A stretch of 53,815 bases of DNA from Chiloscyllium plagiosum (Eukaryota): NCBI RefSeq assembly GCF_004010195.1, contig NC_057738.1, positions 22,898,030-22,951,844 of the forward strand, read 5' to 3'. This document shows, piece after piece, positions 1-48,000 of this stretch. The notes under the pieces are model-generated. The model saw only the letters and a list, made by a program, of their open reading frames with translations, was not told where the DNA came from and made no database searches. The stretch's first letter is position 1; each line of letters begins with the position of its first letter. The translations under genes and the position numbers were made by a program.

Positions 1-332
1 AGAGAAAGTGAGGGCTGCAGATGCTGGAGATCAGAGCTGAAAATGTGTTGCTGGAAAAATGATTGCAGGTTAGGAAGGCGTTGCTGAGTTTGAGGGATTT
101 GACTGAGACAAGGTGGGGGGAGGGGAAATGAGGGAACTGGAGAAGTCTGAGTTCATCCCTTGTGGTTGGAGGGTTCCCAGGCAGAAGATGAGGCGCTCTT
201 CCTCCAACCGTCGTGTTGCCATGGTCTGGCGATGGAGGAGTCCAAGGACCTGCATGTCCTTGGTGGAGTGGGAGGGGGAGTTAAAGTGTTGGGCTACGGG
301 GTGGTTGGGTTGGTTGGTCCGGGTGTCCAGCA
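1..332 (-). mobile_element. Penelope-like element 3' fragment (GIY-YIG endonuclease C-terminus plus terminal repeat piece, family A)
   Basis: HPVAQHFNSPSHSTKDMQVLGL...RRLEEERLIFCLGTLQPQGMN; nt 2-58 match the termini at 17503 and 44743. Confidence 0.85.
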
Positions 333-9727: not shown

Positions 9728-10092
9728 TTTGATTTGATTTGATTTATTATTGTCACATGGACCTAGGTACAGTGAAATGTTTTGTGTGCAGTACAGGCAC
9801 ATCATTCTATACAAAGTGTATTAGGCTAATAGAAGAGATCGAAGAATACAATGTTACGGCTGCAGAGAAGATGCACAAAGAGTGAATTGGAGATAGTGAG
9901 GACTGTAGACCCTGGGAAGTCAGAGTCGATGAAGTGTGGAGCTGGAAAAAGCACAGCAGGTGAAGCAGCATCAAAAGAACAGGAGAGCCGGCGTTTCAAG
10001 TTGGGAAAGAGCGAGATTGACATTAAATTCAAAATTTGAGAGGTCCATTCAGAAGTCTAATAAGAGCGGGGAAGAAGCTGTTCTTGTATCTT
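9728..10092 (-). mobile_element. LINE 3' end with (TTTGA)n tail, interrupted at ~9890-10000 by a PLE family A terminal fragment
   Basis: TTTGATTTATTATTGTCACATG tail also seen at ~36072; the insert resembles 17503-17605. Confidence 0.55.
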
Positions 10093-15583: not shown

Positions 15584-18500
15584 CTAGAATGAAAATATAG
15601 AAAAACGAGGAAAAATATGGACTGAAACAAACTTCTACAAGAATGCGACCTCAGTTGCAGCATTAAGAGATTAATAAATGTCTACATCTGTTGTTATTGT
15701 ATGCACGTACCTGTAAAATATATGTTTTTCTATATTACAGATAGATTAATATTGTTAAACAGAGGAGCAAATCTATTCAAATGGTAAAAGCAAATATTGC
15801 AGATGTTGAAAATCCACAACAAGAAACAAGTCCCTGAAGTACTCATGAGGTCCTGTAGCAACAGTGGAGAGAGAAACATTGTGTGTTGAAAATGACTTCT
15901 TCAAAACTGGAAAAAAAAAGGGTAGAAATGTGATTGGTTTAATGCTGTTAAAAGGCAGAAGTGGAAAGAAGAAAAGGTAAGATTCACCTAGAATGTGGGG
16001 AAATTTGTAAGTTAAAGATGTTGGCATGGATTTATTTTGACTATAATTTAATTAGGCAAGTGCAAAAAGCACCAAATGGATTGTTTTACTAAAAAGAAGT
16101 CATGATTGCTGTAATGTCATATAGAAAATCAATTTGAACTATTAATTACTTTGTCTTAATTGAATTCGAGCTTAAAAACTTGTTTTAAAGTCATGTATTC
16201 TTATTTTAAATCAATTTGAACATCTACAAAACATTACATCATCAATGTAAGCAATGTTGATTAAGGCATAAAATTACAAAGATATACTAATAAATTAAGG
16301 AAATGGACAAAACTGGCAAATAGATTTCAATGCAGGAAAATTAGAGGTTATTCACATTGGACCTAATGGACAGGACAGGGCACTTTCTGAATCGTGAAAA
16401 ATTCCTAGGAGTCTATGTACATCGCTAATTACCAGAGAAACAGTAATAAAGGGACTCCATAGGAAGCATTTGCCACAGTCACTAGCATCAGTCTGATAAA
16501 GTAATACCATACTTGATTTAAAACCTCACCAGGATTTGACCCAATATAGTAATAGTCAAAGAGGCTAAATAATATATCACAGGAAGGATCTGCACTGCAT
16601 TTTGTACCAAGTAAGAATGACCCCACGGGATGTGGGTTACTCCTCATCTCAGAACATGTGACTGTGACACGTACACAAACATTGAGTGGATGGCATATCT
16701 CCATTTCTCAAGTCATGGATAAGTTACACAGTTATTACTGGTACCAATGCATCAGGATATTCTGCATCATTCTGCTTCTAATTTGATTTACGCCTAAATA
16801 AATCCTGTCCATGTAAAGTGAAAGGTTCCAATGGGCATCCTTCACCAAAATAACAGTTCATGGGAAATAATACAAATTGATTATACGGGTCCACTGGCCA
16901 CAACAAATAAACAAACACACAAGTGGCATCAGTTTAGCTTAGTTATTATTGATAATAGTTTTTCTGTAGGTAAAATGTTTCAAGCCTGTGAAGTTAATGT
17001 TGTTACCATTACGAAGATTTTATGGGAACAAAGTTCTATTGATGGGAGTTTTCCAAAAAGGTTACCAAATCATAATGATTGACATTTTACAGCAAAGATA
17101 TTGCAATAGACCATAAGATATAACAGCAGAATTAGGCCATTTGGCCCATTAAGTCTACTCAGATTTACAGAAATACAGGTTCTCTCAAAGAGTTGAAAGG
17201 CTGAGGAGATATGGAGGATAAGGCCAGAGAGGAATTTGAATACAAAGTTGAGAATTTTAAGAGCAAGATGCTACTTGACCATAAGTTAATGTAGGTGAGC
17301 AAGTATAGATGAGATGGTTGAATAGGATAGTGGGTGTGGGCAGGAAGAGTTTTTTAAAAAAATCAAGTTTACAAAGGTTATAATGTGGAAGCTTAGCTAG
17401 GAGTGTATTAAATATTAAGTCTAGAGGTAACAAAGGTATTTTTGAGGATTTCAGCAGTCGATGAGCTAAAGCAGGGGTACAGTCAGGCGACGTTATGATG
17501 AGGAGAAAGTGAGGTCTGCAGATGCTGGAGATCAGAGCTGAAAATGTGTTGCTGGAAAAGCGCAGCAGGTCAGGCAGCATCCAGGGAACAGGAGAATCGA
17601 CGTTTCGGGCATAAGCCCTTCTTCCTGAAGAAGGGCTTATGCCCGAAACGTCGATTCTCCTGTTCCCTGGATGCTGCCTGACCTGCTGCGCTTTTCCAGC
17701 AACACATTTTCAGCGACATTATGATGAGGTGGTCTCACTGATCAAAGCCTCAAATTAGTTCCCAGGAAAAGGTATGGATTTAGTAACTAAAGAAAGGAGT
17801 CTGTCGTGTGGACTGAAAGAAAAATACGCTAACAATTCTTCCAAAAGTTAATCGACGGAAAGTGCTGCCATTCCATAGTGGAAGTCAGGCCACCTGTTTG
17901 ATAATTTAGAGAGAGTGAAGCGGTGGGGAGGGGGACGGGGACTGTAACTTTGTCACTATCACACACTGAGTCATTTGTAACTTTTGATGAAAAATCATTT
18001 TGGCAGGGGTGGACACTGATTTGAGGGAATCAAAATGAAAGTTAGACGTGGACTTTCAAGATCACAACAAATCCAAACACTCTGGAAAGGAAAAAAGGGG
18101 TAGTGGTGGTTTTCAAGGATGTTGGGAAAGTATTTTCTGTTGTCAGAAAGGGTGATGCTTGAAGGTTTGAAGAGGAGGAAGAGCTGTTAACAATATCAGA
18201 ATATATGGGAACATGGTAAGAAAGTATTTGGTAACACGATAAGAAGGGAAATTGAGTGGTCAGCTGTCTGGTGGAAACAATGCCAAAGGAGCAATAAAGT
18301 GGCTTCATGGACAAAATGCTAACAATCAAGACTAGAAGCAAGTAAATTTGGGAATGTCTGTTATCAAACAGTACCAGTTGTATTAAAAATGAGTTTGAAT
18401 CTCAGCTGGATTATGTGAAGAGTTATTCATAATAAAGATCAAATGGCAGGAACACCGATTATGCATGTTTTCAGCTGAAAGGACCCAAAACAGTGAGATG

Positions 18501-36000: not shown

Positions 36001-39000
36001 TGAATGCAGTATTCCAAAAGTGGCCTAACCAATGTCCTGTACAGCCACAACATGATCTCCCAACTACCGTATTGATTTGCTTTGACTTATTTTTGTCACA
36101 TGTACCTAAGTACAGTGAAAAGTTTATTTTTAAGATTTAGATTTTTTGTCACATGTACTCAGGTATAGAAGTACAGGAATATTGTGAAAAATGTATTATG
36201 TCAGCGTACATGGTGCCATCTTAGGCACCAAGGAACCGAAGTACAAAAAAATTTAGGAACAAAATAGTAAGAGAAATGACAGTTAAAAAGTTAAGCATTA
36301 CTGCATGGAATTATCGAAAAATAAAGAATTAACATAATAAGATTCATTTGAACTTCAGTAAGGTGTTCGACAAGGTTCCTCATGGTAGATTGGTTATAAA
36401 GTTTGAGTGAAGATTTGTAGCTCGGGTATCGTTGTTGTGGTTCTGTTTGCCAAGCTTGAAATTTTTGTTGCAAACGTTTCGTCCCCTGTCTAGGTGACAT
36501 CCTCAGTGCTTGGGAGCCTCCTGTGAAGCGCTTCTGTGGTGTTTCCTCCGGCATTTATAGTGGCCTGTCCCTGCCGCTTCCAGTTGTTAGTTTCAGCTGT
36601 CCGCTGTAGTGGCTGGTATATTGGGTCCAGGTCTATGTGTTTGTTGTTGGAGTTTGTGGATGCGTGCCATGCTTCTAGGAATTCCCTGGCTGTTCTTTGT
36701 TTGGCTTGCCCTATAATGGTAGTGTTGTCCCAGTCGAATTCATGTTGCTTGTCGTCTGCGTGTGTGGCTACTAAGGATAGCTGGTCGTGGCGTTTCGTGG
36801 CTAGTTGATGTTCATGGATGCGGATCGTTAGCTGTCATCCTGTTTGTCCTATATAGTGTTTTATAGATTGGTTATAAGTTTAGATCACATGGAATGCACA
36901 AAGAACTACCCATTTGGGTACAGAACTGGCTCAAAGGTAGAAGACAGATGGTGGTGGTGGACGGTTACCTTTCAGACTGGAGGCCTGTGACGAGTGATGT
37001 GCCACAAAGATCTGTCCTGGGTACACTACCTTTCGTAATTTATATAAATGATTTGGATATGAACATAGGGAATATAGTTAGTAAGTTTGCAAATGACACC
37101 AAAATTGGAGGTGTAGTGGACAGTAAAGGAGTTTACCTCAGAGTACAACAGGATCTTGATCAGATGGGCCAATGGTCGAGGAGTAACAGTTGGAGTTTAG
37201 TTTAGATAAATGTGAAGTGTTGTATTTCAGAAAAGCAAATCAGGAACGGACTAATGCACTTAATGGTAAGGTTCTGGGGAGTGTTGCTGATCAAAGAGAT
37301 AGAGCTCCTTGAAAGTGGAGTCGCAGGTAGATAGGATAATGAAGAAGGCATTTTGTATGCTTTCCGTTATTGGTCAGAGCATTGAGTATAGGAGATAGGA
37401 GGTCATGTTGCAGCTGTACAGGACACTATTCGGCCACTTTTGGGATAATATTATGTGCAATTCTGCTCTCCCTGCTATCGGAAGGATGTTGTGAAACTGG
37501 AAAGCATTCAGGAATGCGCTGCCAGAGGAATGGTGGAGGCTGGTACACTTATAACATTTAAAAGGCATTTGGATGGGGATATGAATAGGAAGCGTTTAAA
37601 GGTATATTGGCTAAATGCTGGTAAATGGGAGTAGATTAGTTTAGGATATTTGGTCAGCATGGATGAATTGGATCGAGGGGTCTATTTTTGTGTTGTACAT
37701 CTCTATGACTCCAGTTATCATTAAAAGTCTTTTGTAGTTTAAACTGGGAAAATAAAGGAATACTTAAAAGTTCAACAGGCTTTGATTAGTCCTCCGCTTA
37801 TCTCATTCTGCTATCTGTTCTTGATGCCACGGGCAGTACAGGCAGATCATGGCAAACAAGAACATACAGATCGTAGGATGCTTAGGCAGATTGAAGCATG
37901 CAAGTTATGTCTGCACAGGAGGTGCACAAAGTAAGATCAACATTAGATTTGAAATTCAGTGCACTGACCAATAAAGGCAAGCATACCAAAAGCCTTCTTC
38001 ACTAGCCTGACTACTTGCGACCACACTTTGAAGGAAGTATTAGTGAAAAGGATGCAGAGATGCTCAGTTTGAACAAGTTGAGTGCATGGATAAATACTTG
38101 GTATAATGTGGATAAGTGAGAGGTTATTCACTTTAGAAGCAAAATCAAGAAGGTGGACGTATCTGAATGGCAATAGATTGGGAGGTGCAATGAGACTTGG
38201 GTGTCCTTGTACACCAGTTGCTGAAAGTAATGATGCAGGAGCAGAAGGTGGTGAAGTCGTCAAATGGTATGTGGCCTCCATAGCGAGAAGATTTCATTAC
38301 ATCAGCAGATTACATTACTGTCTGCAATATTTGTCTCCTTATTTGAGAAAGGATGTTCAGGCTATGGAGGGAGTACAATGAAAGTTAATCAGATTGATTC
38401 CTGGGTTGGCAAGACTGACATATGAACAGAAATTGAATCAGTTAAGACTATATCCACTGGAGTTTAGAAGCTCGGAGAGGGGGGTTTCTCATCGACATCT
38501 ATAAAATTTTAACATGACTAGACCAGGTAAATGCAGGAAGTTCCTGGTGACAGGGGAGTCTGGAGTCAAGGGAAGGAAAATGGGGGTAGACAATTTAAGA
38601 CTAAGATGAGGAATTTTTCCACCAAGATGGTGAGCCTGCAGAATTCTCTGCCACAAAAAGCAGTTGAGGCCAAAACATTGAATATTTTCATAGCTGTAAT
38701 TCTTTGGGCTAAAGAAGTCAAAGGAAATGGGGGGGAAATTAGCAATGTGGCACTGATTTGGAAGATAACTATGATTGTGTTGAATGGTAAAGTAAGCTCA
38801 TAGGGCTGAATGGCCTACTATTGCACCAATTCTCTGTTTCTGTGGCCCCAGAAACTCTAAGAAGTTTTATTCTAAATATTTAATTTATTGGCTGTGTTAT
38901 GTAACGAAATATTCCTAATGAAGGATCTATGCCCGAAATGTGGATTCTCCTGCTCCTCGGATGTTGCCTGACCTGCTGTACTTTTCCAGCACCACACTCT

Positions 39001-42000
39001 TGACTCTGATCTCCAGCATATGCAGTCCTCACTTCCTCCTTATCTAGCTAAAGTTTGGATTTAGCGTAATTCTTGTTAGCTGTCTAAAAGATGGGATGTG
39101 ATCAGACAGTTTGGTAATCACAGTTTCAAGGAGCAAATTAGAGGACTACTAAAATTATGGCATGAATGTTCAATTGGAAAATATCAGATCTATCACCTGA
39201 TGTGGGGAAATGCATAGCCTCCACTTAGTAACTGACAAATTGAGAATTGAAACTGAAATTGAGAATTTAACAAATGGGGATTTGTGGTCTCATCGTGAAT
39301 CAGCATGCTGAATATTTAGTGAAAGTGATTCTTGAACATTAACAAGTTATTTAATGTATGATCAGTGAAATCTTGTAAAGAAAATAATTCTAGTCTGTTT
39401 CATATGTTCTGTTATTTACTGTAAATCTTGGTAATTAGCGTCATTAATATCATTGTAGGCAAGTCTACTTGATTTGAAGTGCTTAATTCTTCTTTTCATA
39501 TTGTTACTTAACTTTAATAAGGCTTGTCAGCCATCTTAATACACACATATTTCATTTCACTACATTTAAGTACTGAAGAGACAGGAATTTTGAGAATCAG
39601 TGCAGTATACTGTTCTTTTCAAATAGGGAATAAAGATTTTTTTTTTGCATTAAATTCTAACTTTGTTACAGTCTCTGGGTATAAGTTTGCTCGCTGAGCT
39701 GGAAGGTTCGTTTTTCACAATCAAAACAAACCTTCCAGCTTAACGAGCAAACTTACTTCCAGAACCTCAACCTGAACTACAAATCTTCTCAAAACTCACT
39801 TTATAACAGGCATTACTTGATTTAGATTATTAGATAATTCAATACTACTCAAAAAACCTTGATAATTTCAGGAATAGACTTGCTTAAATCAAATTTTAAT
39901 GTACAATGTTTGTATTTGAATATGCCTTTACCTTTCCATGAATGATGTATAATTACTCTCTCAGTAAATGCAAGAGTTTTGCTAAAATATATTAGAATAG
40001 TTGATGATTGCAGTGGTATTATTTTGTTAATTTGAACTCTGGTACAAGACAAAATAAGGCAAAGCAATAGTAATATCAGGTTTCTTGGTCACTAGGGGTC
40101 TACTCCACCAATGACTGTCTTCAAAGGTAATAAAAGGCCATATCAGAAGGATTGTGTACTTATTATTAACCATGATACTGGGGAGTTTGTGCTTGAAAAA
40201 CTCAGTAGCAGTATACAGGTAAAGAAAACCAGGTGAGAATACATATGTTTTAAAAGTATTTAAATAATTATTTTTGTGACTGTCGTATAGCATTTCGGAC
40301 AATACTATGCATTGGCTTAAAAATCACACAACACCAGGTTATAGTCCAACAGGTTTAATTGGAAGCACACTAGCTTTCGGAGCGACGCTCCTTCATCAGG
40401 TGATAGTGCTATAACCTGATGAAGGAGCGTCGCTCCGAAAGCTAGTGTGCTTCCAATTAAACGTTGGACTATAACCTGGTGTTGTGTGATTTTTAACTTT
40501 GTACATCCCAGTCCAACACCGGCATCTCCAAATCATGCATTGGCTTGTTAGTCGTTTTTTCTGATTTACTTTGTATAAAATGTTATTGTCTAAATATATT
40601 AATAGTAGTACATTAATATTTAATCATTGAATTTTATTGCATAGATATAGGCCATTGAACAATTTGTACCTGTGCCTGCTCTCAAAAATCATTTTTCTTT
40701 CTCTCCTCAATTCCAAACCCTTAAAATTTTTCATGTTCTCCTAAAATTACCCTTTTGTTCTTAAGTACTTATTGAAACAATTGGGCAGTGATCACTTCTT
40801 CAAAACTATAGATTTAGTGTCTTTGAAATAATTCATTTTCAAGATTTCTACATTTCAACACCTGCAATGGCTTGCGTTATAAATGTATAATTCTCAAGAG
40901 CTTGAAACAATTTGTAGCATATTGAGTCTTCACAATGTTAGATCCTTCAATATTTGTACAAATCCTTAAATCTTGTCAGGTTAAAGTTTCTGCCTTGTAT
41001 ACTACCAGCGTTTTTATTCAAAACTTTTAAAATATGGCTTTATCCTGGGGAATTTTACAGAAATTATGGCAGAAAACGTTCTTATGAGTGCTCATGGGAG
41101 GCAGGGTTTTCACAATGAGGTACTTGTTTTATTAATGAACACTACTCGAGTTATTCTTGAAAAATATGATTATGAATATTGGGTGAGGACACCAGCAGTA
41201 TTTGTGTTGAGGCTTAGGAACTACTTGCTCTCCTGGCACTTAAGTGCTTAGGCTCAGAGATAAATATGGCTACTGTGAAACTGGCCCATCCAGGGTTGGT
41301 CTCTTCAAAAGATGAAGCATGACACATAAGAAGGGAGGACATTTTTCATTATCACGATTTTGTTGTCCTTGACTTTTATAGAATAATTTTAAAGTTATTT
41401 TGATAATGTTATATAATTTCTTATTGCTATCAAATGATGCATGTCTAATCCTCCCTCAATGACCCAATTACCAATAATTGTTTCAGAGCTGAAGGGAGCA
41501 GTAAAATCCAGGCTCAATTGGAATCACAAGCAGTGCGAAGATCTCAGCCTTCCTCTCAGTTTAGAGCACCAAGTAAGCCATGTCCTGGTCCGAAAGCGTC
41601 TCCGACAAAGGACAACCCGTCACCTGAACCACAACTTGATGACATAAAAAGAGGTATACGAATGAAAGATCTTTGTAAATGGGCACATGAAACTTTTAAG
41701 AGCAGGAAAAGCCACTTGATGAATCAAATCTTACTACCTGGTGTTTATTTTAAGTCCTCCTCCTCCAAAACTATATATTGCTCTACAATTTATCTGTATG
41801 CCTTGCCTAATTATTTGTTTGTCCTCCTGCAGTTGTTTACAGTATTTTCATAGTTAACAATAGTGATATTGTTTCAGTGCTAGTCATCCAGAGACCCAGC
41901 TAATGGTTTGGGGACCTGGATTTGAATCCCAGATGGTGGAATTTGAAAACAGTACAAAACCTGGAATTAAAAGTCTAATGATGACCATTTTCGATTGTCA

Positions 42001-45000
42001 CTTACAAAAGAAAAAGACCCATCTGGTTTAAAACGTGCGTCATTCTGAGAGGCCTTGACAGGCTATGTCCTCTTTTTTTTCTACTGAGTAAACCTTGCAG
42101 GTGATTGTGTGGCTATGGCAACCGGAATTAAAAGTCCGTGTGCTGGCATGCTCACTGTGTAAACAGAAACTTACATAGCTTAGAGGGATAGTGTGGAAGA
42201 ATAGATATTGCAAAGATATTTCTTGTAGTGGGGGAGTATTGAACTGCTTAAGGTGATAAAATTTCTTCTCCAGAAGGATTTGGAATTCGAGAGTTATGGA
42301 GGTTAAATCACTGAAAGTATTTAAAGAGAAGATAGTTAGATTTTTGAAATACAGAGGAACCTCGATTATCCGAACAAGATGGGCGGACACTATTTTGTTT
42401 GGATAATTAATTATTCAGTTAATTAATTCAACGCCTCTACTCTGGGGTTCGGATTTTTCTGAAGTTTCCTTTTTCCTCGCTCTGCCTGCCTTGCTCCCTC
42501 TCTCTGTCTCAGGGTTTGTTTCTGAGCAGACACACACTTGTGTGTAAGGGACCTGCAGCGTAGCTGAAGTCTCCTACTGCCCCCACCCCCTCACCCAAAG
42601 CGTTCAATGGGATTAACACAGTGGGCACTTGCTAAGTCCACATCCCAGTCAGGAGACTAGGCAGCAGTACACCGCATGCGAGCCCCTGCGACGCCAACCC
42701 CCGTCACCCCACCCCACCCCCCCCAACTCTGCGCCACCCCAGGGCAGCTAGACTGGATGCCAACAGTAAGTCTGCTGCTGCCTTTGGGTGGGGGTGGGGG
42801 TGGGGGTGAGTCTACACACACACACACCTTTTTGACAAATTCCATCTTTGCCCTGTACAGGACAATGTTGGAGAGATTATTTGGGGAAGGGGGGTTCAGG
42901 GTACACCCCTGTGTAGAACTCCAGCGAAGGTGTCGGGACACAGAGAAAGGGCAGTCATTTGGAGACAGTGCCTGGGCTCCCATCGATGTCCGAGGTTGTT
43001 CTGTGCACCATTTCAGTAAGCCAGGTTCGTTTTTAATCATTGTAAACAAAAGACACAATCAGTGTTGAAACACCTCTTTGATGTAATATTTCTATCGGGA
43101 CCTTGAGATCTTCTTCGGATAATTTGAAATTCGGATAATTGATATTCAGGTAATCCAAGTTCCTCTGTACTGGGGAGTGGAGGACTATAATAAGCTGGCA
43201 CAAAAGAGGAATTGAGGCTTGGGACAGATCAGCCATGATCTTATTGAATGGTGGAGCAGGCTTGAAGGGCCAAATGGCCTACTCCTGTTCTAATTTTGAT
43301 GTACTTACATTCTTATTTCAGGGCATTCTGTAGATTTTGACAGAAACCACAGCTTAAGTCATTCATAGGTATGTATTGAAAAAAAAATGACCATATTGGA
43401 TTGGTGGCATGTCATAACTGTACTGAAGAAATTTCAGATGGCATTAGATAAGGTATTATGTAAGTGACTTGTTTCAAAATTGCTATGAAAGGTGTTGTAA
43501 CAGCATTGACAGAAAATTGATTGACTAAGAATAAACAGAAAGTGAGGGTTAGTAGGAATGCATTTGATACCAGAAGCATTAAAAATAATGTGTCTCATAG
43601 GTCAAAACAAATAAAGAGTTTGGTGGGAAGGTAGTTGTAAAAGACTGAAAGAGCTCTTGCATAGGTTGTTAGGCTGGCATTATTTGACACAAGTTATAGT
43701 AGAGAAATGTGTTCATAAAAACATATCTTGCAACATCTTTCAATAGTTTCTTTGAAGTACAAATACAAGAAAATGGTGATTGAAAAGACTAGTAATACTT
43801 TGAGTTTTATGAATTGGGGCATGACAAATAGTTACAGCACACTGGTTAAGCTACAGTTGGACACTGTACATTTTTGATCCTTAATATATAAAGACATTCT
43901 TGCCAAAGAGGCAAACTGCATAGATCTACCAGGATGAAACCAAGAACGAGAAGTTGATGTGATGGGGAAATACTTGGACAGCTTCTACTAGAACAGAGAT
44001 GAAGAAAAATAATTTTTAGTAGGTTTCTTGCATTATGAAGAATTTTGACTATTTCCTCTAATTGAAGGCTCATTGATGTAAAATTATCACTGAATGAAGT
44101 GAGAATTCTGAGAGCTTGCCTTGTGTTCCTATAGAAAAGAGCTGAGGCAGAGACTATTCTTTCTTTTGAGATATGGCAGTAACCATTTAAAGCTGAGGTA
44201 GATCCTTGGCTCTTCAAAGGGAGAATTGGCCAGATGGTGCTTTCTGGATCGCCCATTGAAAGGAGCAAGTACAGGCATGAGAAGCTTCATTCTGATCTGT
44301 AAACTTTGACTAGACCACCACCTAGCAGGAAAATACCATTTAGATCTCTAGATGAGAAAGCAAATATTAGCCAACTTCTTTTTACTTTTTTCACTGTTCC
44401 TCATACTGTACATTTTTGTAGTATATATACACAATGTTTTGTGTATTATAACATTGTGGCTAATCTGCATCTGAACTCTTTTTACCAAACTTGCTTCAAC
44501 ATCACTTAATATTTTTAATAAATAAAAGCCTCACAATAAAAGAAGTGTTTTACATTTTTTGAATGCCCTCAATAGACTTTTTTTTATTGGGAGGAATAGT
44601 TCCATATTTCTACTACCTTTTATATCAACGTGATATTATTTTGTTTGCAGTACAATGTAATCTTTTTAAGTTCAATGATATACTCAAGGGGTGTTGAATT
44701 TGATATCTGACCATTCTTGTGCATTGAAACTTTTTTTACTTGGAAAAAGTGAGGACTGCAGATGCTGGAGATCAGAGCTGAAAAATGTGTTGCTGGAAAA
44801 GCACAGCAGGTCAGGCAGCATCTAAGGAGCAGGAGAATCGACGTTTCGGGCATAAGCCCTTCTTCAGGAATGAGGAAAGGTGTGCCATGCAGGTTAAGAT
44901 ATGACGGATATGGAAAGACCCCACCACCAAGGATATATTTCCCTCCCCTCCCCTATCAGCATTCCGGAAAGACCACTCCCTCCGCGACTCCCTCGTCAGG

Positions 45001-48000
45001 TCCACACCCCCACCAACCCAACCTCCACTCCCAGCACTTTCCCCTGCAACCGCAAGAAATGCAAAACTTGCGCCCACACCTNNNNNNNNNNNNNNNNNNN
45101 NNNNNNNNNNNNNNNNNNNNNNNNNNNNNNNNNNNNNNNNNNNNNNNNNNNNNNNNNNNNNNNNNNNNNNNNNNNNNNNNNNNNNNNNNNNNNNNNNNNN
45201 NNNNNNNNNNNNNNNNNNNNNNNNNNNNNNNNNNNNNNNNNNNNNNNNNNNNNNNNNNNNNNNNNNNNNNNNNNNNNNNNNNNNNNNNNNNNNNNNNNNN
45301 NNNNNNNNNNNNNNNNNNNNNNNNNNNNNNNNNNNNNNCCCCCAAGTCCCCCCTCCCTACCTTTTATCTTAGCCTGCTTGGCACACCTTCCTCATTCCTG
45401 AAGAAGGGCTTATGCCCGAAACGTCGATTCTCCTGCTCCTTGGATGCTGCCTGACCTGCTGCGCTTTTCCAGCAACATATTTTTCAACTTTTTTTACTTG
45501 TACTATTTCTCTTAATTTGCACATGCCATCATTATGCTTCCACTATTTTGCTTTGTCATCTACAAAAATGTAGTTCAGTTCATCTGTAGATCTGCACGTG
45601 TTTTTGTGGTAATAAAAATATTGAATCTCTTTATTCGCAAAGAGAAGGTAAAGAAAATGTGTGTATGTTTGAATCTCATTTATTTTCACAAATGTAGTTC
45701 ATTTTTTTCCCTCTCACTGATAGCTCTACCATAGAGCATATTTTTTCTTCTTGAAAATGTCGGTCTCGTTCTATTTACTCAGGTGATCAGAAGTATATGA
45801 TGATCATAAGGTTACTGTTCATAGATTTTAGCAGTATGGTGTTATGTGATGTGAGGCATTGAAAGGGAAGACAAACAGATTTTCCAAAGAACTTCGTCAT
45901 TACTACAGTTCAACATTGTTGCCTTTATTTTCTTTTACTGGATTCCATCATTTTCATTGAGGAAAAATGTTTGCAGAAATAAGTCACAAGTGTTTAAAAA
46001 AAACGGATAAGCTACATTTCTTCAAAGAAAGCCAGTGAATTTAAAGCTTATATTCTATGTTAATAGCTTTCTCCCCCATCCTTCCAGAATTGAGAGCAGA
46101 AGTTGATATTATTGAACAGATGAGCAGCAGCAGTAGTTCTTCAGATTCAGGAAGTTCCTCTGGCAGTGACGACAGTTCCAGCAGTGATGTGGAAAATGAA
46201 GCTCACCCCTCCTCTACACCACCACAGATGCAACCCCAACAGCAACCTCCCTCCCAATCTCAAACCCATCCCCAGCAGCAACCACCACAGCCATACCAGC
46301 AGTACAGTAACAGAAATGCTGCGACAAATGGCACCAGCAGACCAGGAAGCAATCAACTTATGAGCACACTTAGTAAGTATGCAATGCTTAACTGCATTCT
46401 TAATTTCTTGCTGTTGTACAAGATATACGTTTGTTTCTTCTCTGCAATAGATGTTTGTAATTAGTTGCATTTCACTGAATAATTCAATATTAAGCTAAAG
46501 AAAAGCAGCTGCTGATAATATGAGCATTTCTTTTTCTGGCAAGGATGCCCAAACCTGTTGGTTTTTGCAGAGTATTACACTATGTCTGCAGTGATTACAT
46601 AGTTTCAAGAATATCCCAAAAGGCTGTAGATATCTCCACTTCAAATCAAAAAGCAAAAATGTATTTTCTGTTTGCAAATATTTGAGAATGAAAACAAACT
46701 TGTATCAAATTCTCATGTCTTACATCAGGTGTTCTCATTAATTCCCCACATAGGTTGTAAAAATTAGACTCCCATTAACTCCCATGAATTCTGGTATACT
46801 GGCTGGAAAATTGATGATGTTGCATGTTGTGAAGATATCCAGAATAATCATAAAATAATAAGTAACACCCAAATGTTTTGAAACCTATGCAGAATTTGCC
46901 ATAACTACTTAAAAATGTCAAGCTTATGTGAAAGGGTATTATTAGTTCTTCTAGAAATTTTGCAACCAATAGTCCAAGATATTGGAAGATGCCCAGATAT
47001 AGTATAAGATGCCAACCAGCTTAGTCCCAGGCACGTTCTACTGCAGTTACTTAATGTTATTTTGATTTTCAGTAGCAGTTACAATGAAATCCAGTTTTAA
47101 TAATAACAGTGAAAACGTCATGCATGGATTCCAGTTTTAAGATCACTCTTCTACTGGTCTATTTGTCCAACCTATGGGTGGAATTTCTACTCATTGGTGT
47201 GGCATTGATGAGAAAAATGAGAAAATATGGAGAATGGGAAAAAAAGCAATCTTGACATCAAAAAAATGATTTACAATATTCTCTTAAGCCTTAAATGCTG
47301 ACTTCAGAATCTAACCATTGAATGGCAACTACCTTATTTCCATGGATTTGCATTCTATTAAACTTCACTTTTAGGAAGGCACAGTGGCTAAGTGGTTAGC
47401 ACAGCTACCACATAGCACCAGGGACCTGGGTTCAATTCCAACCTTGGGTGACTGTCTGTGTGGCATTTGCACGTTCTCCCCGTGTCTGCTTGGATTTCCT
47501 GCCACAATCCAAAGACATGCAGTTTAGGTGAATTGGCCTTGCTAAATTGCCCATAGTGTTCAGGGATGTGTAGGCTAGGTGTATTAGTCAGAGGTAAATA
47601 TAGGGTAGGGGAAGGGGTCCGGATGGGTTACTGTTCGGAGGGTCGGTGTGGACTTGTTGGGCTGAAAGGCCTGTTTCCACACTGTAGGGATTCTAATTCT
47701 TCTCAGTATTCCGTTTTTGTATGCTACAAATTCTAGAATGGCTTTTGAGCATTTGTATCTTACCTGTAGTCAATATCTAGTTTGGTTTAGCATTTTACTC
47801 AATATTGCTGTATTGTCATATTTGATGTAGAGGGGTTCTACCACCTCTTCATCCATCTCCATAAGGGTGAGAGAGGCATGAATGCTGTTGCTAGTCTGTG
47901 GTCATAAGGACAAAGTGGTCTCAGTCTGTGTGAAAGTGCATATGAGCTCTCTTGGAGCAGATTATGATGCTCATGATAGGCTCTGGACTCCTCATTCTTA

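What the first reader, a model, noticed from the sequence alone, without database searches (positions are those of the whole stretch)
17487..17729. Ribozyme-bearing fold-back mini-retroelement: perfect 88-bp hairpin, tail and TSD, no coding sequence
Seen: a perfect 88-bp inverted repeat with a 2-nt loop. Its right arm starts a minimal hammerhead core (CUGAAGA-A-GGGC-UUAU-GCCC-GAAA-CG-UC), there is a ~33-nt tail on one side only, and a 17-nt flanking duplication with one mismatch. The same arm forms the termini of a PLE with ORF remnants at 44743-45485. Established: Penelope-like elements carry minimal type I hammerheads in their pseudo-LTRs and often show an inverted 5' pLTR with a short tail. 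Inference: this ~210-nt unit was inserted as a single event and consists only of two fused terminal repeats. It is either an extreme truncation product or a self-propagating non-autonomous, retrozyme/MITE-like family that looks like a DNA MITE but moves through a PLE RT/GIY-YIG.
Basis: partly seen in the sequence, partly recalled or inferred. Interest (0 to 1): 0.78.

Follow-up and report, generated by a model that had tools for sequence, protein, structure and literature searches.

The report
Fold-back stub of Penelope retroelement
This perfect DNA hairpin is one of thousands of mirror-image stubs of a Penelope-type jumping gene in this genome; each was likely made separately, when both cut DNA strands copied the same short start of the element's RNA, so it is an ordinary, probably dead insertion whose joints likely record where that RNA begins.

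Summary
In detail: 88-bp perfect inverted repeat, 33-nt one-sided tail, 17-bp duplication, minimal hammerhead core; a related organism has the empty site. The self-propagating reading is not supported. The exact junction occurs 809 times, but among 7,707 such fold-backs with many other junctions; its copies mix three arm subtypes in about the general proportions and carry the tail on either side. Best reading: a run-off product of a Neptune-like Penelope element. 77 of 83 two-arm insertions pair one long with one short end, as twin priming at two RNA sites predicts. 5' ends pile up just before the hammerhead with excess non-template G (3,444 versus 2,280), a likely cap signature. A roughly threefold peak of ends at the ribozyme cut site hints at cleavage in vivo. 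This copy's ribozyme is predicted to be locked in the hairpin. The architecture is in print; the mechanistic read-out was not found in my searches. This scan has already reported the same thing many times on other DNA of this and other genomes.

The parts
17487..17503 (.). Left copy of the 17-nt target-site duplication; its last 5 nt also match the element RNA beyond the tail
   Evidence: single copy at the empty site in organism C
17504..17536 (-). Tail: the RNA stretch between the short and the long reverse-transcription start site (inferred), present on this side only
   Evidence: tail = stretch between two RT start sites in PMC11167929
17537..17624 (-). Left arm: inverted copy of the element's pseudo-LTR end; hammerhead core incomplete on this strand
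17622..17626 (.). Junction: 3 nt (17622-17624) that fit both arms (microhomology), then the 2-nt loop (17625-17626), which is the first two bases of the hammerhead core
   Evidence: sequence compared with the parent ends at 44860-44875 and 45390-45405
17625..17652 (+). Minimal type I hammerhead core (4-bp stem II, ACGU palindrome instead of stem III); predicted cut between 17652 and 17653; predicted to be sequestered in the long hairpin
   Evidence: sequence; descriptor in PMC4209133; folding
17627..17714 (+). Right arm: sense copy of the pseudo-LTR end, ending at the short start site
17713..17729 (.). Right copy of the target-site duplication; first 2 nt overlap the arm end
44743..45489 (+). 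Longer insertion of the same family: tail plus inverted arm, endonuclease-linker remnant, assembly gap, sense pseudo-LTR; 15-nt duplication at 44728-44742 / 45486-45500

Best explanation
The hairpin is a single insertion of the hammerhead-bearing end of an abundant endonuclease-positive Penelope-like element, one of thousands that were likely made independently, likely by twin priming and run-off. Steps: (1, inferred) the element's RNA starts, capped, at the A four bases before the hammerhead core; (2, shown as a footprint) the target is cut with a stagger of about 15 nt; (3, inferred from footprint plus in-vitro work on a relative) each cut strand primes reverse transcription inside the RNA, one at about +94 and the other at about +130, which leaves the tail on one side only; (4, inferred) both cDNAs run to or near the RNA's 5' end, so neither can exceed about 130 nt; (5, inferred) their 3' ends anneal through a few complementary bases (here 3 nt) and fill-in gives the head-to-head palindrome. 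Longer insertions would need an RNA that reads through from an upstream copy. This copy is predicted to be a dead end: no coding sequence, no upstream promoter part, ribozyme buried in an 88-bp stem on one strand and broken on the other.
For: Empty site in organism C. 7,707 fold-backs with up to 24 nt between the stem-II motifs, about 34 different junction strings in the first 50 places (counted by eye); the exact junction is 809. Exact-junction copies: tail left 16, right 10, unclear 5 of 31; arm subtypes 12/11/3 against 55/19/6 in general arms, p=0.11, no variant private to them; a subfamily with a different core base shows the same junction geometry (C1:14778684). 3' ends are bimodal, 74 and 65 of 142; 77 of 83 two-arm insertions pair one long and one short end (p about 1e-17); duplications 12-17 nt in 60 of 64. 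5' ends: 15 of 101 at -4, 49 of 101 at -4..0, 14 at -5 to -22, 18 long; similar in a partly overlapping sample anchored further downstream (13 of 100 at -4, 13 long). Base before -4: G 3,444 against A/T 2,280 where 28.7% G is expected; at least 4 of 30 inspected show a lone G found in neither target nor arm. Parent carries RT and GIY-YIG motifs. Hairpin -193 kcal/mol, stem II probability 5e-15.
Against: No RNA evidence for the start site: single-cell poly(A) reads showed no place where many molecules begin (such libraries are poorly suited). In 9 of 30 G-cases the G can come from the opposite arm and in 8 from the target duplication, so the cap signal is partly entangled with microhomology. 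The -4 position is also the edge of ribozyme stem I, so a structure-related stop is not excluded. PMC11167929 looked at a Penelope/Poseidon element in vitro and did not show both strands primed in one event. No intact full-length parent was recovered (gaps of N), and both Pfam hits are below cut-off. Samples come from the start of contig C1 and from loci picked by several patterns, not at random. A twin-primed copy of a hairpin RNA could in principle rebuild the same unit with the tail on either side, so re-mobilisation of some hairpins is not excluded.
Confidence: 0.75

Rival explanations
1. Self-propagating non-autonomous family: a master hairpin RNA is copied as a unit by the Penelope RT/endonuclease.
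For: 809 places share the exact junction, each inspected copy with its own flanks. Two cDNAs made from a hairpin RNA would be complementary through the arms and could rebuild the unit. Two earlier scan notes claim occasional copying of whole hairpins (unchecked).
Against: Only 10.5% of 7,707 fold-backs; arm subtypes mirror the general population, with no private variant; tail on both sides; the junction is the top microhomology beside the common 5' end; the unit lacks the sequence upstream of the inferred start and its RNA would be one stiff duplex.
Confidence: 0.08
2. Self-priming: one cDNA (or an antisense template, as proposed in PMC3846280) folds back at its 3' end and copies itself, giving the palindrome without a second priming event.
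For: The junction can be read as a 3-bp fold-back of one cDNA; head-to-head palindromic junctions were interpreted this way in PMC3846280 (passages).
Against: Self-copying of a cDNA made from a sense RNA puts the tail on one fixed side of the asymmetric loop, but both sides occur, 16 and 10; in this copy the cDNA that reaches -3 is the one without the tail, so it could not template it. A 2-nt loop is a poor primer, yet this junction (8 of the first 50) outnumbers the 5-nt-loop version (5 of 50). Many partner arms stop far apart, leaving no palindrome at the joint.
Confidence: 0.07
3. Independent insertions by twin priming, but the common 5' end is a reverse-transcriptase stop at the folded ribozyme (edge of stem I), not a capped transcription start.
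For: -4 is the last base that can pair in stem I (4 bp in the minor GAAU subtype, 6 of 114 cores); no RNA start site was seen; a second family also joins a few bases before its core.
Against: It does not explain the excess G; stem I is weak in the main subtype (106 of 114 have a U-U mismatch); the site matches an initiator consensus (recalled) and pseudo-LTR promoters with initiators are described (PMC2377424, PMC3846280; passages).
Confidence: 0.1

Closest known systems
Insertion units of endonuclease-positive Penelope-like elements with inverted pseudo-LTR, 30-40 nt tail and short duplication (PMC3846280; PMC8557442; passages read)
   Same: Head-to-head inverted end, tail on one side, duplication of variable length, hammerhead in the pseudo-LTR.
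   Different: Nothing lies between the two ends; such minimal products are the bulk of insertions here, with sharply clustered 5' ends.
Internal initiation at two adjacent RNA sites by the anole Poseidon element PAc (PMC11167929; main text read)
   Same: Two start sites that define the tail; both target strands cut and extended; uncut RNA is the main template (most arms here run through the cut site).
   Different: Parent here is Neptune/Nematis-type by its linker motif; start sites appear to lie before the likely start codon, not inside the ORF; 2 nt or more of target/RNA overlap in 26 and 29 of 64 ends (inflated by the search method), whereas the paper reports no homology; a minor peak at the cut site, whereas the paper saw no RNA ends there.
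Minimal type I hammerheads of metazoan Penelope-like elements (PMC4209133; Results and Discussion read)
   Same: Core boxes, extra base before stem II, G-C closing pair, palindrome in place of stem III; the paper notes pairs of motifs 100-700 bp apart on opposite strands.
   Different: Here the two motifs abut, one is broken, and the intact one is predicted not to fold.
Non-LTR retrozymes (bioRxiv 10.64898/2026.07.22.740005; part 1 of 5 and passages read)
   Same: Short, non-coding, type I hammerhead, Penelope-derived.
   Different: Retrozymes are head-to-tail tandem units with a ribozyme in each; this is head-to-head, with one intact core.
LINE-1 twin priming and cap-derived G (as summarised in PMC4859970; passages read)
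   Same: Inversion from two priming events; untemplated G at full-length 5' ends.
   Different: Both priming sites are fixed and internal, near the RNA's 5' end, so the two cDNAs copy the same stretch.

Membership tests
Endonuclease-positive Penelope-like element insertion | Parent ORF with reverse transcriptase | tested here: met
   RT core motifs joined to the same tail and arm in L135 and a DKG motif 952 nt upstream of an arm in L318; RVT_1 E 5.7e-4 on L075, below cut-off; 2 of 3 pieces gave no Pfam hit
Endonuclease-positive Penelope-like element insertion | C-terminal GIY-YIG endonuclease with two cysteines between GIY and YIG | tested here: met
   L172 ORF; Pfam GIY-YIG E 3.6e-4, 21.2 bits against cut-off 22.6
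Endonuclease-positive Penelope-like element insertion | Inverted pseudo-LTR, 30-40 nt tail at one end, variable duplication | tested here: met
   empty site
Neptune/Nematis clades | CX2-5CxxC linker before GIY-YIG (absent in Penelope/Poseidon, PMC8557442) | tested here: met
   C-X4-C-X2-C in window frame P0002 and L172
Neptune/Nematis clades | Placement in an RT phylogeny | not tested
   no intact RT recovered
Minimal type I hammerhead | Core boxes, stem II, palindromic 15.1-16.1 region, NUH | tested here: met
   17625-17652 on +; stem II probability 0.98 in the parent context; no Rfam hammerhead match
Minimal type I hammerhead | Stem I of 4-5 bp | tested here: not met
   2 bp in this copy; 3 pairs with a U-U mismatch in the main parent subtype; 4 bp in 6 of 114 cores
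Minimal type I hammerhead | Self-cleavage | not testable with these tools
   indirect only: about threefold peak of ends at the cut site for the family; predicted unable to fold in this copy
Non-LTR retrozyme | Head-to-tail tandem units, each with a complete hammerhead | tested here: not met
   head-to-head, second core broken
Self-propagating non-autonomous family | Copies share one junction and one arm lineage | tested here: not met
   tested on 30 of 809 exact-junction places and 45 arm positions only
DNA MITE | Symmetric terminal inverted repeats and fixed-length duplication | tested here: not met
   one long and one short end in 77 of 83; duplications 11-22 nt

The most novel reading that the evidence does not exclude
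These stubs are a fossil record of the Penelope reaction: insertion is normally twin-primed from two fixed RNA sites, the capped transcript from a pseudo-LTR yields only strong-stop-like cDNAs of about 94 and 130 nt (which is why tandem copies are needed to move the ORF), and a few percent of templates had been cut by the minimal hammerhead, which would be genomic evidence that these weak ribozymes cleave in the germ line.
Probability: 0.45. Interest if true: 0.62.

Novelty: new member of a known kind. Interest (0 to 1): 0.36.

Why it matters
The locus itself is an ordinary, probably inert insertion. The population of such stubs bears on three open points about Penelope-like elements: how the inverted pseudo-LTR and one-sided tail arise, why partial tandems are needed, and whether the minimal hammerhead cuts in vivo. 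It gives exact positions to test. For annotation, it shows that a MITE-like shape with hundreds of identical junctions can come from recurrent retrotransposition and need not be a family.

Tried and rejected
Rfam scan: no hammerhead family; microRNA look-alikes are hairpin artefacts. Full-length parent: two extended loci and 30 ORF-start loci were all truncated, deleted or gapped. PDB sequence search with the L172 ORF: no match. RNA: no RNA holder listed on record; of two raw-read runs one gave 2,154 laid reads, nearly all from stubs inside host transcripts with no start or end peak, and the other none; inconclusive. First duplication finder failed on many pairs and was replaced. The +27 control pattern is contaminated: about half of the first 100 listed look like a one-base deletion in whole arms (by eye, contexts not fetched). 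DNA MITE and retrozyme readings rejected (membership table). Assembly artefact rejected: flanking duplication, empty site in organism C, contigs of organism B running into the insert from both flanks. Literature searches for Penelope with palindromic/non-autonomous/inverted/tail (25), UCON13 (30), inverted pLTR (32), promoter/initiator (38), twin priming (45) and shark plus hammerhead (70) listed no paper describing these stubs, twin priming or a cap signature in this class; the library lacks most subscription papers and Repbase/Dfam were not available. PMC2718515 gave no passage on caps; one search found nothing. Supplements were not read; Figures S1-S2 of PMC11167929 may already show 5' end clustering. 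Look-ups of scan notes by sequence (39) and nearby (74) returned nothing.

Full report
Observation. The arms 17537-17624 and 17627-17714 are 88 of 88 complementary around a 2-nt loop. A 33-nt tail lies on the left only, and a 17-nt duplication with one mismatch frames the unit. On +, 17625-17652 reads as a minimal type I hammerhead of the kind described in PMC4209133 (Results and Discussion read); Rfam has no matching hammerhead model. A contig of organism C runs from 17492 straight to 17719, the empty site with one copy of the duplication, while contigs of organism B run 20-25 nt into the insert from both flanks. So this is one real insertion.

Parent. The same tail and arm end the element at 44743-45489. 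[quoted passage not shown] Pfam hits are weak and below cut-off: GIY-YIG E 3.6e-4, RVT_1 E 5.7e-4, with 3 of the 5 pieces scanned giving nothing. The C-X4-C-X2-C linker marks Neptune/Nematis rather than Penelope/Poseidon according to PMC8557442 (passages). No intact copy was recovered. An exact 28-mer of the ribozyme region occurs 39,995 times.

Family or recurrent product? But 7,707 places have two opposed stem-II motifs within 24 nt, and the first 50 hold about 34 different junction strings, the exact one 8 times (by eye). Among the window copy and the first 30 of the 809, the tail is left of the loop in 16, right in 10, unclear in 5 (by eye one more on each side). Their arms fall in three subtypes, 12/11/3 with 4 unreadable, against 55/19/6 with 21 unreadable in general arms (p=0.11); variants shared by both arms of a copy are common in general arms. 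The junction is a 3-nt overlap between an arm that reaches position -3 and one that stops at +2 to +4 (positions counted from the first C of the core). A recurrent microhomology joint explains it. A caveat: twin priming on a hairpin RNA could rebuild the unit in either orientation, so some re-mobilisation is not excluded, and two unchecked scan notes claim it.

3' ends. Of 142 arm ends, 74 stop at the short site and 65 about 36 nt further. Of 83 two-arm insertions, 77 pair one long with one short end, 3 long-long, 2 short-short, 1 other; the loci were picked by several patterns, none of which fixes both ends. Duplications are 12-17 nt in 60 of 64 (mode 15). PMC11167929 (main text read) showed in vitro that a Poseidon protein cuts and extends both strands and starts at two internal RNA sites that bound the tail. 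The long-plus-short rule is what both strands priming on such an RNA, one at each site, would leave. Self-priming, proposed in PMC3846280 (passages), cannot give the tail on either side of the loop.

5' ends. In 101 arms anchored on the ribozyme, 15 begin at -4, 49 at -4 to 0, 20 at +1 to +8, 13 at -5 to -11 in a decay that chance matching would give, 1 at -22, and 18 continue far upstream. A partly overlapping set of 100 anchored downstream of the cut site gives 13 at -4, 13 long and 3 at +28. The template base before -4 is C; genome-wide it is replaced by G 3,444 times and by A or T 2,280 times, 60% G against 28.7% expected. In 30 inspected G cases, 9 can take the G from the opposite arm, 8 (one a duplicate locus) from the target duplication, at least 4 have a lone untemplated G, and the rest have it in filler (by eye). 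Untemplated G at full-length 5' ends is read as cap copying in LINE-1 and SVA (PMC4859970, passages). The site fits an initiator consensus (recalled), and initiator-type promoters in pseudo-LTRs are described (PMC2377424, PMC3846280; passages). I infer a capped start at -4. RNA reads did not test this usefully; their loose ends at the matching position only repeat the genomic cliff.

Mechanism. An RNA starting at -4 carries its priming sites at about +94 and +130. Both cut strands prime, both cDNAs run off the 5' end, their ends anneal on a few bases, and a palindrome of about 170-220 nt with one tail results. Only an RNA reading through from an upstream copy can give the long insertions (13-18% of arms), which fits the known partial-tandem organisation (PMC8969392, passages). 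The footprints are shown; the steps are inferred.

Ribozyme. In this copy the RNA of either strand folds into the long hairpin (-193 and -188 kcal/mol; stem II probability 5e-15), the - strand core is broken, and stem I has lost its outer pair. It is predicted inactive. For the family, arms starting exactly at the cut site number 526, against 111 one base later and 298 one base earlier; corrected for what each pattern can capture, about 1,456, 444 and 825, and about half of the last look like one-base deletions in whole arms. Internal changes contaminate 6 of 30 inspected loci in both the cut-site and the +29 sets (by eye). So a local peak of about threefold remains, a few percent of arms. It is not proof: of the 24 true starts only 9 are blunt, and the rest overlap the purine-rich partner by 1-2 nt. 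Fold-backs joined near the cut site are rare (168 for one arm subtype). PMC11167929 saw no RNA ends at the cut site and PMC4209133 found low activity in vitro.

Standing. The architecture is known; retrozyme and MITE membership fail (bioRxiv 10.64898/2026.07.22.740005, part 1 and passages). My searches listed no paper on these stubs, on twin priming or on a cap signature in this class; supplements and repeat databases were not seen. The scan has reached the same reading many times (57 findings in at least 17 genomes; many in this genome); these are unchecked notes, not support. My twin-priming and run-off reading was noted before I saw them; the long/short count and the cut-site test were prompted by them. 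Verdict: real, ordinary in kind, new member of a known kind; interest 0.36, carried by the population signal rather than by this locus.

Noticed in passing
window 40307-40546 and 1940-2165: A second, sequence-unrelated family gives the same architecture: opposed arms with a minimal hammerhead (5-bp stem II, AGCU palindrome), joined a few bases before the core, tail on one side, 12-nt duplication at 40307-40318 / 40535-40546. Only 8 such cores were seen in the fetched DNA.
   Followed up: partly
window 17749-17889: The right flank differs from both organism B and organism C at 10 listed places, 8 of them A/T there and G/C in the window, mostly outside CpG, while the left flank is about 1% from B (12 differences were not shown). 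Looks like a GC-biased conversion cluster beside the palindrome; a paralogous contig is not excluded.
   Followed up: partly
two-arm insertions: Target duplications overlap the element RNA by 2 nt or more at 26 of 64 short ends and 29 of 64 long ends (2 and 5 nt in this copy), suggesting that priming often uses a few bases of homology; the search method inflates this.
   Followed up: partly
window 2-58, 9947-9997, 38907-39044: Further pieces of the same family: a tail plus very short inverted arm joined to endonuclease-region sequence at the window start, an old partial arm, and an older single sense arm with tail that begins at about the same -4 position.
   Followed up: no
L147:3738-4040, L160:1560-1640: The likely start codon lies about 35-40 nt past the tail, but its frame is open back into the arm, so the true start is uncertain.
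   Followed up: no
L126, L160, L172, L175: Copies with ORF-start sequence are mostly internally deleted circular-permuted or tandem pieces in which the N-terminus is fused to the 3' end of the ORF, as template switching between copies would give.
   Followed up: no
window 39661-39755: Another short inverted repeat picked up by Rfam as a hairpin look-alike; similar sequence flanks L014.
   Followed up: no
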